Below are positions 56,601 through 59,600 of a DNA stretch of 64,000 nucleotides, one piece after another. Origin of the DNA: Escherichia coli (GTDB lineage Bacteria; Pseudomonadota; Gammaproteobacteria; Enterobacterales; Enterobacteriaceae); assembly GCF_002854065.1 (NCBI RefSeq), contig NZ_CP024147.1. One strand, given 5' to 3'. Position 1 is the first letter of the stretch; each line of letters begins with the position of its first letter. The position numbers are program-made.

Positions 56601-59600
56601 CACCACTGGCGTCGAAAAAGTGTGTATTCATTTTGGCAAACCGCAGCAGCAGGCGCTGGATCGCGTAGATATTGCCACCATGACCCGCTATATGCAGGAA
56701 GGGCATTTCCCGCCTGGCAGCATGTTGCCAAAAATCATCGCGAGCCTGACGTTCCTGGAACAGGGCGGCAAAGAAGTGATTATCACCACGCCGGAATGCC
56801 TGCCCGCGGCGCTGCGCGGTGAAACGGGCACCCATATTATTAAAACGTGAGGACGTAAGATGAAAGAAAGCAATAGCCGCCGTGAGTTTTTGAGCCAGAG
56901 CGGTAAGATGGTCACCGCCGCCGCGTTGTTTGGTACGTCTGTGCCGCTCGCCCATGCGGCGGTAGCTGGCAACCTAAACTGCGACGCGAATAACACCATG
57001 AAAATCACTGACCCGCACTACTATCTCGACAACGTGCTGCTGGAAACCGGTTTTGACTACGAAAACGGTGTGGCGGTGTAGACCCGCACGGCGCGCCAGA
57101 CCGTGGAGATTCAGAACGGTAAAATTGTTGCGCTGCGCGAGAACAAGCAGCATCCGGACGCCACGCTGCCGCACTATGACGCTGGCGGTAAGCTGATGCT
57201 GCCCACCACCCGCGACATGCATATTCATCTCGACAAAACCTTTTACGGCGGGCCGTGGCGCTCACTCAATCGTCCGGCTGGCACCACCATTCAGGACATG
57301 ATTAAGCTCGAGCAGAAAATGCTGCCGGAACTGCAACCGTATACTCAGGAACGGGCGGAAAAACTGATCGATTTATTGCAGTCGAAAGGCACTACCATTG
57401 CCCGCAGCCACTGCAATATCGAACCGGTTTCCGGCCTGAAAAATCTGCAAAATTTGCAGGCGGTGCTGGCGCGACGTCAGGCGGGCTTCGAGTGTGAAAT
57501 TGTCGCCTTCCCGCAGCACGGTTTGCTGCTGTCGAAATCGGAACCCTTAATGCGCGAAGCAATGCAGGCAGGGGCGCATTACGTTGGCGGGCTGGACCCA
57601 ACCAGTGTTGATGGCGCGATGGAAAAATCCCTCGACACCATGTTCCAGATTGCGCTGGACTACGACAAAGGCGTCGATATTCACCTGCACGAAACCACTC
57701 CGGCAGGCGTGGCGGCCATCAATTATATGGTTGAAACAGTGGAGAAAACGCCGCAACTGAAGGGCAAACTGACCATCAGCCATGCCTTTGCGCTGGCAAC
57801 ACTCAACGAGCAACAGGTAGATGAACTGGCTAACCGGATGGTGGTGCAGCAAATTTCTATCGCCTCGACGGTGCCGATTGGTACGCTGCATATGCCGCTC
57901 AAACAGTTACACGACAAAGGCGTAAAAGTGATGACTGGCACTGACAGCGTTATCGACCACTGGTCGCCTTATGGTCTGGGCGACATGCTGGAAAAAGCCA
58001 ATCTCTACGCGCAGCTCTATATTCGTCCTAACGAACAGAACCTCTCCCGTTCGCTGTTTCTAGCCACTGGCGATGTATTGCCGCTGAATGAAAAAGGCGA
58101 GCGTGTATGGCCAAAAGCGCAGGATGACGCCAGCTTTGTGCTGGTGGACGCCTCCTGTTCCGCCGAGGCGGTGGCGCGTATCTCGCCGAGAACCGCAACG
58201 TTCCATAAAGGGCAACTGGTGTGGGGGAGTGTGGCAGGTTGATGCGCATTTGAAACGCCTGCAACGGTGAATAGTAAGAGATTTAAGCCCCAGGGAGTGG
58301 GGCGGGAATGGTTTGCTAATGAATGATCCTGAACTTTATAATCTCCCGGCATAATTTCCAGGGGATTATTTGAGAGAAATACACAAAAGTGAGTTTTAAC
58401 AAAGGTATTTATCAGGCCATAAATGTGACCTGCTTCGGATAAAAAAGATTCAGTATCGAAAAACCAATGATATTCTTGCTGATGGTTACCAACAGTAATT
58501 AAGATGTGATTTGTTTTTCCGTAATCGCGAAAATATTCTCATGACCATAAAAGAAAAAATCTTACAAAAATATCCCCATGCTTCCTTTTGTACTTTTGGC
58601 GATTCTGCAGCGTTGGCCGATCACCTCGCAACGTTGATTGCGACTGGTGTTAAAACAGCTTCCTGTGGTTCGCTGGCAGGATGTATTGAAGACAACGCAT
58701 TTCCGATGATTGGTGAGTATAAGATTGTAGAAAATAGCCGTGGTGAGCCTGTATGTGTTATCAGAGTGATTGGCCTGCATTTACTGCGCTTTTCTGATGT
58801 CACCGCGGAGCTTGCCCGTAAGGAAGGTGAAGGTGACCTCAGTCTTGAATATTGGCGTAATGAACACCGTCGTTTTTTCCAGGCAGAAGGAAGCTATTCA
58901 CCAGAAATGGACGTTATCTTTGAAGAATATGCCCTTATTGACGTTGTGTAGATAACTATTTATATACGCGAAATAAACTCACACACATAAAATATCGCTA
59001 ATTTTGTTTATTTTGCTATTTTTTACGTGATGAATGTCACACTTATTGTTGCTGCCCGTTTTGTCCATATTTATAACCATATTTTTAATAGCTGCCTGAA
59101 ATAGGGCTGTTTATTCTGCATAAAAATATTCGAAAATTCTTATTCTCTCCAGCGCGCTAATTTGGGCGAACACTTCCTGACTACCCTGCAATGAGGCTGA
59201 AATGATGAATAAACGTTTTGTTATCAATATGGTGTCTTCGCTGTTATTAGGCGCTGCGCTAATTTCTGCGCCGCTCCAGGCAGCGGAAAAAGTCGTGGTG
59301 AATATTTCTAAAGTCGATGGTATGCCGTGGTTTAATCGCATGGGCGAAGGTGTGGTTGAGGCGGGTAAAGCCTTTGGTGTTAATGCGTCACAGGTGGGGC
59401 CTTCAAGTACTGATGCTCCGCAACAGGTTAAAATTATTGAGGATTTAATCGCCCGTAAGGTTAATGCAATTACTATCGTGCCAAACGATGCCAACGTGCT
59501 GGAACCGGTATTCAAAAAAGCGCGAGATGCCGGAATTGTGGTTCTGACCAACGAATCCCCCGGTCAGCCAAGTGCTAACTGGGATATCGAAATCATTGAT

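What the first reader, a model, noticed from the sequence alone, without database searches (positions are those of the whole stretch)
57070..57110. In-frame amber codon splits yahJ
Seen: the two track ORFs 56860-57081 and 57103-58242 are in the same frame and separated only by TAG at 57079-57081; spliced together they give about 460 codons with a Tat signal at the N-terminus and amidohydrolase motifs downstream. Inference: a single nonsense mutation (consistent with CAG to TAG) inactivates the predicted first enzyme of the yah pathway in this strain, unless the host carries an amber suppressor; it could also be a sequencing error.
Basis: seen in the sequence. Interest (0 to 1): 0.55.

Follow-up and report, generated by a model that had tools for sequence, protein, structure and literature searches.

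The report
Inherited nonsense mutation inactivating yahJ
An E. coli clone carries a real, inherited C-to-T change that turns codon 74 of the uncharacterised exported amidohydrolase gene yahJ into a stop; this is ordinary gene decay, already flagged as a pseudogene in public annotations.

Summary
TAG at 57079-57081 is the only interruption of a 460-codon yahJ frame (56860-58242). The nearest intact allele (strain XJ34) and K-12 both have CAG there, so the change is C→T, Q74*.

It is not a sequencing error. Two complete genomes (100416 from Gambia, CUWW06 from Thailand) carry the identical allele, and NCBI's annotation pipeline (PGAP) marks both "internal stop". The exact 73-aa fragment is on record from 103 contigs. 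Two independent assemblies match the window at 100%.

The allele is rare: 2 of about 4,350 complete genomes that match this segment. No suppressor was found. The window's only tRNA is Thr, both sister genomes have wild-type Gln tRNAs, and no complete genome has a supF-type tRNA-Tyr.

The stop lies 47 codons before the first metal ligand (H121). The GTG at 57103 has no Shine-Dalgarno sequence, and any product from it would lack the Tat export signal.

Sub-lineages carry further changes in the operon: a 12-bp in-frame deletion in the window's yahG, and an IS1 at the start of fdrA in CUWW06. "First enzyme of the yah pathway" is untested.

Verdict: an ordinary lineage-specific pseudogene, of low interest.

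The parts
56860..58242 (+). yahJ pseudogene: 460 codons plus the terminal TGA, broken by one internal stop
   Evidence: Translation. 100% identical to loci that PGAP annotates as 'yahJ, amidohydrolase family protein, internal stop' in strains 100416 and CUWW06.
57079..57081 (+). Premature amber codon TAG, codon 74. The ancestral codon is CAG (Gln), and the change is C→T at 57079.
   Evidence: Residue 74 is Q in 12 of 13 sampled full-length proteins and H in one.
56860..56958 (+). Twin-arginine (Tat) signal peptide, codons 1-33, with the SRREFL motif and an AHA cleavage site
   Evidence: Sequence identical to the YahJ signal peptide in Table 2 of PMC7549933. Also listed as a predicted Tat substrate in PMC3027627.
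56860..57081 (+). Residual product: 73 aa, made of the signal peptide plus about 40 mature residues, with no catalytic residue
   Evidence: The exact sequence is on record from 103 contigs.
57103..58242 (+). Downstream in-frame ORF of 379 aa starting at GTG (codon 82). It holds all the catalytic motifs but has no Shine-Dalgarno sequence and no export signal.
   Evidence: SD duplex energy is -1.7 kcal/mol against a background mean of -2.0, while genuine starts in the operon range from -2.1 to -11.2. Residue 82 aligns with CodA residue 22.
57220..57228 (+). First metal-binding HxH motif (H121-I-H123) of the amidohydrolase fold, 47 codons after the stop
   Evidence: Sequence. The alignment offset to cytosine deaminase 1k6w (82↔22) places H121/H123 on CodA H61/H63, and the motif also aligns to AtzC 6nbo.
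56849..56853 (+). Shine-Dalgarno sequence (GAGGA) of yahJ, overlapping the yahI stop codon
   Evidence: Sequence. Duplex energy -6.2 kcal/mol.
51306..56850 (+). Upstream genes of the cluster, all with open frames: yahD 51306-51911, yahE 51951-52814, fdrA/yahF 52804-54351, yahG 54351-55757 (carrying a 12-bp in-frame deletion at 55744), yahI 55900-56850
   Evidence: ORFs. Annotation of the sister loci. Pfam families AllH, AllF-like, AllG and AA_kinase. Deletion.

Best explanation
yahJ in this strain is a lineage-specific pseudogene. One C→T transition at window 57079 changed codon 74 from CAG (Gln) to TAG. Ribosomes starting at the normal ATG (56860) terminate after 73 residues, which are the Tat signal peptide plus about 40 residues of the N-terminal beta-sandwich region. 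None of the metal-binding or catalytic residues is made, so the exported amidohydrolase is lost. The mutation arose once, on an allele that still exists intact in strain XJ34, and was inherited clonally. The clone is spread over several countries and sample types, so the loss is tolerated. The change, its direction, its inheritance, and the absence of supE and supF in the sister genomes are shown. Loss of the protein and of its activity is inferred.
For: - **The stop:** it is the single internal stop, at codon 74.
- **Direction:** XJ34 differs at 4 of 1386 bases, including C at 57079, and K-12 has CAG. From 57000 to 64000, XJ34 differs from the window at only five positions, one of them the TAG, while upstream divergence is 2-5%. 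The mutation is therefore recent and sits on an extant intact allele.
- **Inheritance:** strains 100416 (Gambia, human stool) and CUWW06 (Thailand, wastewater) have an identical yahJ, which PGAP flags 'internal stop'. The window is 99.9% identical to both over 25 kb, and the next genome is at 98.1%.
- **Independent data:** the exact 73-aa and 379-aa fragments are on 103 and 88 contigs. ENA metagenome contigs carry the same allele. GCA_035821435.1 and Logan ERR3970133 match the window at 100%.
- **Rarity:** only 2 of about 4,350 genomes match the TAG-containing 61-mer exactly.
- **No suppressor found:** the window's only tRNA is Thr-CGU. The Gln tRNAs of both sister genomes are CUG, CUG, UUG, UUG. 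No record has a supF-type tRNA-Tyr.
- **Position in the protein:** the stop precedes the HxH motif at residues 121-123.
- **No restart signal:** there is no SD before GTG 57103.
- **Dispensability:** 384 of 5,426 complete genomes have no yahJ match at all, and strain E423 has ISApl1 inside the gene. Other N-terminal fragments with unrelated tails point to independent frameshifts.
Against: - No protein-level or read-level data were available.
- The window strain's own genome outside these 64 kb could not be scanned for suppressor tRNAs. supD, supP and other amber suppressors were not tested, even in the sister genomes.
- Basal read-through of UAG and restart at GTG 57103 cannot be excluded as sources of trace product.
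- The downstream 1,161 bases of yahJ show no further damage in any clone member. That fits a recent event, but it would also fit continued selection on the downstream frame.
- A deletion of yahJ was mildly attenuating in one ExPEC mouse competition (competitive index 0.70, p=0.02; PMC7549933), so the gene is not without effect everywhere.
Confidence: 0.93

Rival explanations
1. Sequencing or assembly error: the real base at 57079 is C and yahJ is intact.
For: A single-base substitution is the kind of difference an error could produce. The window strain's reads were not available.
Against: The same T is present in two complete genomes from different laboratories and continents. It is also in ENA metagenome contigs, in an NCBI draft and a Logan re-assembly that match the window at 100%, and on 103 contigs overall.
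Confidence: 0.01
2. The amber codon is suppressed by a supE-like or other suppressor tRNA, or by efficient natural read-through, so useful amounts of full-length exported YahJ are still made.
For: A supE tRNA would insert Gln and restore the exact wild-type protein. supE alleles exist in 155 records. From general knowledge, low-level UAG read-through occurs in E. coli.
Against: The 60 listed supE records all look like K-12 laboratory derivatives. Both sister genomes have wild-type CUG anticodons on glnV and glnX. No complete genome has a supF-type tRNA-Tyr, and the window holds no suppressor. From general knowledge, basal read-through is typically well below 1%.
Confidence: 0.03
3. After terminating at TAG, ribosomes restart at GTG 57103, 22 bases downstream. 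This would make a 379-aa signal-less enzyme that stays in the cytoplasm and keeps some activity.
For: The frame after the stop is fully intact in every clone member. The 379-aa ORF contains all the catalytic motifs. Short-range restart after nonsense codons is known in E. coli (general knowledge).
Against: GTG 57103 has no Shine-Dalgarno sequence (-1.7 kcal/mol, at background level). The product would lack the Tat signal and the residues equivalent to CodA 1-21, which is the first part of the beta-sandwich domain, so it would be in the wrong compartment and possibly misfolded. The intact downstream frame is equally explained by the mutation being young. The second hits to the operon argue against selection to keep the pathway.
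Confidence: 0.03
4. A natural two-gene arrangement: a small exported peptide gene followed by a separately initiated amidohydrolase gene.
For: Gene callers do call two ORFs here.
Against: 5,035 complete genomes cover at least 80% of the query, and those listed annotate one yahJ gene. The family model spans the stop in a single stretch. Residue 74 is a sense codon in all 13 sampled full-length members. Only this one clone has the split.
Confidence: 0.005

Closest known systems
yahJ (b0324) of E. coli K-12: a predicted Tat-exported amidohydrolase/deaminase of unknown function
   Same: It sits at the same locus with the same neighbours (yahD-yahE-fdrA-yahG-yahI upstream). It is 96.2% identical in DNA, has an identical signal peptide, and has the same 460-codon length.
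   Different: Codon 74 is TAG instead of CAG, and there are 53 base differences across the gene. Downstream, the window has an ASCH gene and an ABC-transporter insert that K-12 lacks.
yahJ pseudogene annotated 'internal stop' in RefSeq genomes NZ_CM128593.1 (strain 100416) and NZ_CP182139.1 (strain CUWW06)
   Same: The yahJ sequence is 100% identical, including the TAG. They belong to the same clone.
   Different: The window also has a 12-bp deletion in yahG and lacks CUWW06's IS1 at the yahE/fdrA junction.
AtzC (N-isopropylammelide isopropylaminohydrolase; 6nbo, 2qt3, 4cqb) and cytosine deaminase CodA (1k6w): the closest relatives with solved structures
   Same: They share the amidohydrolase-superfamily fold and the HxH metal motif at the equivalent position. 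E-values are 2e-43 for 6nbo and 6e-16 for 1k6w.
   Different: They are distant relatives. The cytosine deaminase models in NCBIfam score far below their cut-offs. Those enzymes do not align to YahJ's N-terminal signal region, and YahJ's substrate is unknown.
AllFGH oxamic transcarbamylase plus AllK carbamate kinase of the allantoin pathway (PMC11326118, PMC9843812)
   Same: The yah neighbours fall in the same Pfam families: AllH (YahE), AllF-like (FdrA/YahF), AllG (YahG) and AA_kinase (YahI).
   Different: The yah set is a paralogous cluster that neither paper mentions. Its substrate, and the place of YahJ in any pathway, are untested.

Membership tests
Nonsense-mutation pseudogene (lineage-specific gene inactivation) | Orthologues have a sense codon at the position, and the difference is a single base | tested here: met
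   CAG in XJ34 and K-12 against TAG here. Q in 12 and H in 1 of 13 sampled full-length proteins.
Nonsense-mutation pseudogene (lineage-specific gene inactivation) | The change is real and inherited, that is, seen in independent assemblies | tested here: met
   Two complete genomes, metagenome contigs, a draft assembly and a Logan assembly; 103 contigs in all.
Nonsense-mutation pseudogene (lineage-specific gene inactivation) | The stop removes essential parts of the protein | tested here: met
   The stop is at codon 74, and the first metal ligands are H121/H123.
Nonsense-mutation pseudogene (lineage-specific gene inactivation) | No suppressor tRNA in the host | tested here: inconclusive
   None in the window. 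No supE in either sister genome, and no supF in any complete genome. The window strain's full genome and the other suppressor loci were not examined.
Nonsense-mutation pseudogene (lineage-specific gene inactivation) | Full-length protein is absent | not testable with these tools
   This needs a western blot or proteomics.
YahJ / NCBIfam NF005312 amidohydrolase subfamily | Whole-protein score above the curated cut-off | tested here: met
   713.5 bits against a cut-off of 447, with Q restored at position 74.
Tat (twin-arginine) exported proteins | N-terminal S/T-R-R-x-F-L-K motif, a hydrophobic stretch and an AxA cleavage site | tested here: met
   SRREFL ... AHA, identical to the TatP-predicted YahJ signal in PMC7549933. 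Actual export was not tested here.
Programmed stop-codon recoding or read-through gene | The in-frame stop is conserved among orthologues | tested here: not met
   Only 2 of about 4,350 genomes have the TAG-containing 61-mer.
Cytosine deaminase (CodA) equivalogs | Score above the curated cut-off of a cytosine deaminase model | tested here: not met
   Best score 101 bits against a cut-off of 438 (NF005748), and 68 against 403 for the equivalog NF005759.

The most novel reading that the evidence does not exclude
The Q74* mutation could be the first step of selected, not merely tolerated, loss of the whole yah cluster in an IS1-active clone. Sub-lineages have independently acquired further changes in the same operon: the yahG WCER deletion in the window's sub-clade, and an IS1 splitting the fdrA start in CUWW06. 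Alternatively, a restart product could move the enzyme from the periplasm to the cytoplasm.
Probability: 0.07. Interest if true: 0.35.

Novelty: already known. Interest (0 to 1): 0.1.

Why it matters
It matters little beyond correct annotation. The two ORFs should be recorded as one yahJ pseudogene, not as two genes. The allele is a convenient clonal marker, and together with the yahG deletion it marks a sub-clade. The clone is also a natural yahJ knockout, which could help anyone trying to assign a function to the uncharacterised yah cluster, a paralogue of the AllFGH/AllK oxalurate branch.

Tried and rejected
- **Sequencing error:** rejected, because the identical allele appears in many independent assemblies.
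- **supE suppressor:** a query with the CUA-anticodon tRNA-Gln found 155 records, and the 60 listed look like K-12 laboratory derivatives. Because that list was truncated, I fetched the glnV clusters of both sister genomes directly, and both are wild type.
- **supF suppressor:** no exact match in any complete genome. supD, supP and others were not tested.
- **Restart at GTG 57103:** no SD support. ATG at codon 113 has an SD-like match (-6.1 kcal/mol), but it would start only 8 residues before the HxH motif and drop the whole N-terminal subdomain.
- **Intrinsic terminator after yahJ:** none found by the simple scan.
- **Literature on YahJ:** only Tat-substrate lists, one mouse competition result and a y-ome listing were found. 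The AllFGH and AllK papers do not mention the yah paralogues. Tullman-Ercek et al. 2007 is not in the library.
- **Structure prediction:** not run, because sequence alignment to solved relatives already places the stop ahead of the catalytic core.

Full report
**1. The observation**

TAG lies at window 57079-57081. The ORF list gives 56860-57081 (73 aa, ATG) and 57103-58242 (379 aa, GTG) in the same frame. Translating 56860-58245 yields 460 codons with one internal stop, at codon 74. The frame is open from 57082; 57103 is simply the first start codon the ORF lister accepts.

With Gln restored at position 74, the protein matches NCBIfam NF005312 (amidohydrolase) in a single stretch, residues 49-459, at 713 bits against a curated cut-off of 447. 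It also matches Pfam Amidohydro_3 and Amidohydro_1. The first 33 residues are identical to the YahJ twin-arginine signal peptide tabulated in PMC7549933.

**2. What the change is**

Against 5,426 complete E. coli genomes, yahJ is found in 5,042. Only four records are at least 99% identical to the window's allele, and the next group is at 96.3%.

- Strains 100416 (Gambia, human stool) and CUWW06 (Thailand, wastewater) are 100% identical, including the TAG. NCBI's annotation pipeline (PGAP) marks both as a pseudogene with "internal stop".
- Strain XJ34, at 99.7%, has an intact 460-aa gene. It differs at four bases, one of which is C instead of T at 57079 (CAG, Gln). K-12 also has CAG.
- Residue 74 is Q in 12 of 13 sampled full-length proteins and H in one.
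- From 57000 to 64000, XJ34 differs from the window at only five positions, one of them the TAG itself, whereas upstream the two diverge by 2-5%.

The mutation is therefore a recent single C→T transition on an allele that still circulates intact.

**3. Real, not an error**

- The window is 99.9% identical to 100416 and CUWW06 over 25 kb, and the next genome is at 98.1%. It is neither of them: it differs by a few SNPs, lacks CUWW06's IS1, and has its own 12-bp deletion in yahG.
- The exact 73-aa and 379-aa fragments are on record from 103 and 88 contigs across NCBI, ENA, JGI and Logan.
- ENA metagenome contigs carry the identical allele.
- A draft genome (GCA_035821435.1) and a Logan re-assembly (ERR3970133) match the window at 100% over 9.4 and 5.4 kb.
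- The allele is nonetheless rare. Only 2 of about 4,350 complete genomes match the 61-mer containing the TAG exactly.

**4. Suppression and restart**

- The window holds one tRNA, Thr-CGU.
- A query with a supE-type tRNA-Gln (CUA anticodon) finds 155 records. The 60 listed look like K-12 laboratory derivatives.
- Because that list is truncated, I fetched the glnX-glnV-metU-glnW-glnU cluster of both sister genomes. Their anticodons are CUG, CUG, UUG, UUG, which is wild type.
- No complete genome has a supF-type tRNA-Tyr.
- Other suppressors, and the window strain's own genome, remain untested.

For restart, GTG 57103 lies 22 bases past the stop. Its upstream region pairs with the anti-Shine-Dalgarno sequence at only -1.7 kcal/mol. 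The window-wide mean is -2.0, yahJ's own start scores -6.2, and fdrA and yahG score -10 to -11. Any product from it would lack the Tat signal and the residues equivalent to CodA 1-21.

**5. Consequence**

The alignment to cytosine deaminase (YahJ 82 ↔ CodA 22) places YahJ's HxH motif (H121/H123, window 57220-57228) on CodA's H61/H63. AtzC 6nbo aligns across the same motif. The 73-aa product therefore carries no catalytic residue.

I infer that the exported enzyme is lost. This is likely tolerated:

- 384 of 5,426 complete genomes have no yahJ match at all.
- Strain E423 has ISApl1 inside the gene.
- Several other N-terminal fragments in the protein cluster end in unrelated tails, as independent frameshifts would produce.

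A caveat is that a yahJ deletion was mildly attenuating in an ExPEC mouse competition (competitive index 0.70, p=0.02; PMC7549933).

**6. Context**

The neighbours fall in the Pfam families AllH (YahE), AllF-like (FdrA/YahF), AllG (YahG) and AA_kinase (YahI). They are paralogues of the oxamic transcarbamylase AllFGH and the carbamate kinase of the allantoin pathway (PMC11326118, PMC9843812). Neither paper mentions the yah genes, and the yah cluster is listed among uncharacterised y-ome clusters (PMC11551758). Calling YahJ the "first enzyme of the yah pathway" is therefore a guess.

Within the clone the operon has taken further changes:

- The window's sub-clade has lost four codons (WCER) near the yahG C-terminus.
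- CUWW06 has an IS1 with a 9-bp target duplication at the yahE-stop/fdrA-start junction.

Other decay lies nearby: a frameshifted fdeC shared with CUWW06, three IS1 copies in a prophage remnant, and private IS insertions in each strain. These fit relaxed selection in an IS1-active clone, but the numbers are too small to claim selection for loss.

**7. Verdict**

This is a real, inherited, lineage-specific nonsense pseudogene of an uncharacterised gene, already flagged as such in RefSeq for two sister genomes. It is ordinary. Its practical uses are correct annotation, a clonal marker, and a natural knockout for anyone studying the yah cluster.

Noticed in passing
window 55744 (yahG, 54351-55757): A 12-bp in-frame deletion removes WCER near the YahG C-terminus (468 aa instead of 472). 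It is absent from K-12, XJ34, both sister genomes and the metagenome contigs that carry the TAG allele. It is present on three other public contigs, always together with the split yahJ, so it marks a sub-clade.
   Followed up: yes
window 52806-52814 (yahE stop / fdrA start); L002 1167-1934: Sister strain CUWW06 has an IS1 inserted here with a 9-bp duplication, separating the fdrA start from the rest of the gene. This is a second, independent hit on the yah operon. The window lacks it.
   Followed up: partly
window 10197-10965 (-), 15789-16556 (-), 17624-18391 (+): Three IS1 copies lie inside a decayed lambdoid prophage remnant (exo, bet, gam, rusA and an antiterminator Q gene in CUWW06's annotation), next to tRNA-Thr(CGU) at 4913-4988 and an integrase ORF at 5003-6163. 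Beside the IS1 at 10964, the window has about 660 bp that CUWW06 lacks. CUWW06 in turn has an IS2 and a further IS1 that the window lacks.
   Followed up: partly
window 27229-29037 and 29004-31481: The inverse-autotransporter adhesin gene fdeC is split into two overlapping ORFs by a frameshift. The lesion is shared with CUWW06, where PGAP marks the gene 'frameshifted'.
   Followed up: partly
window 58511-63638: Between yahJ and yahK there is a roughly 5-kb block that K-12 lacks: an ASCH-domain gene (58511-58951) and a four-gene AI-2-type sugar ABC transporter. It is present in the sister strains and in XJ34.
   Followed up: no
window 55770-55850: The yahG-yahI spacer holds one copy of an 82-bp REP-type unit, which K-12 and XJ34 carry as three copies (the K-12 'yahH' ORF lies over them). 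The copy number varies between lineages.
   Followed up: no
L009 17649-20441 (strain 100416): Near its glnV cluster, strain 100416 has a djlB pseudogene with an internal stop and an IS1 in ybeR. Both genes are intact in CUWW06, so this is strain-level decay within the clone.
   Followed up: no
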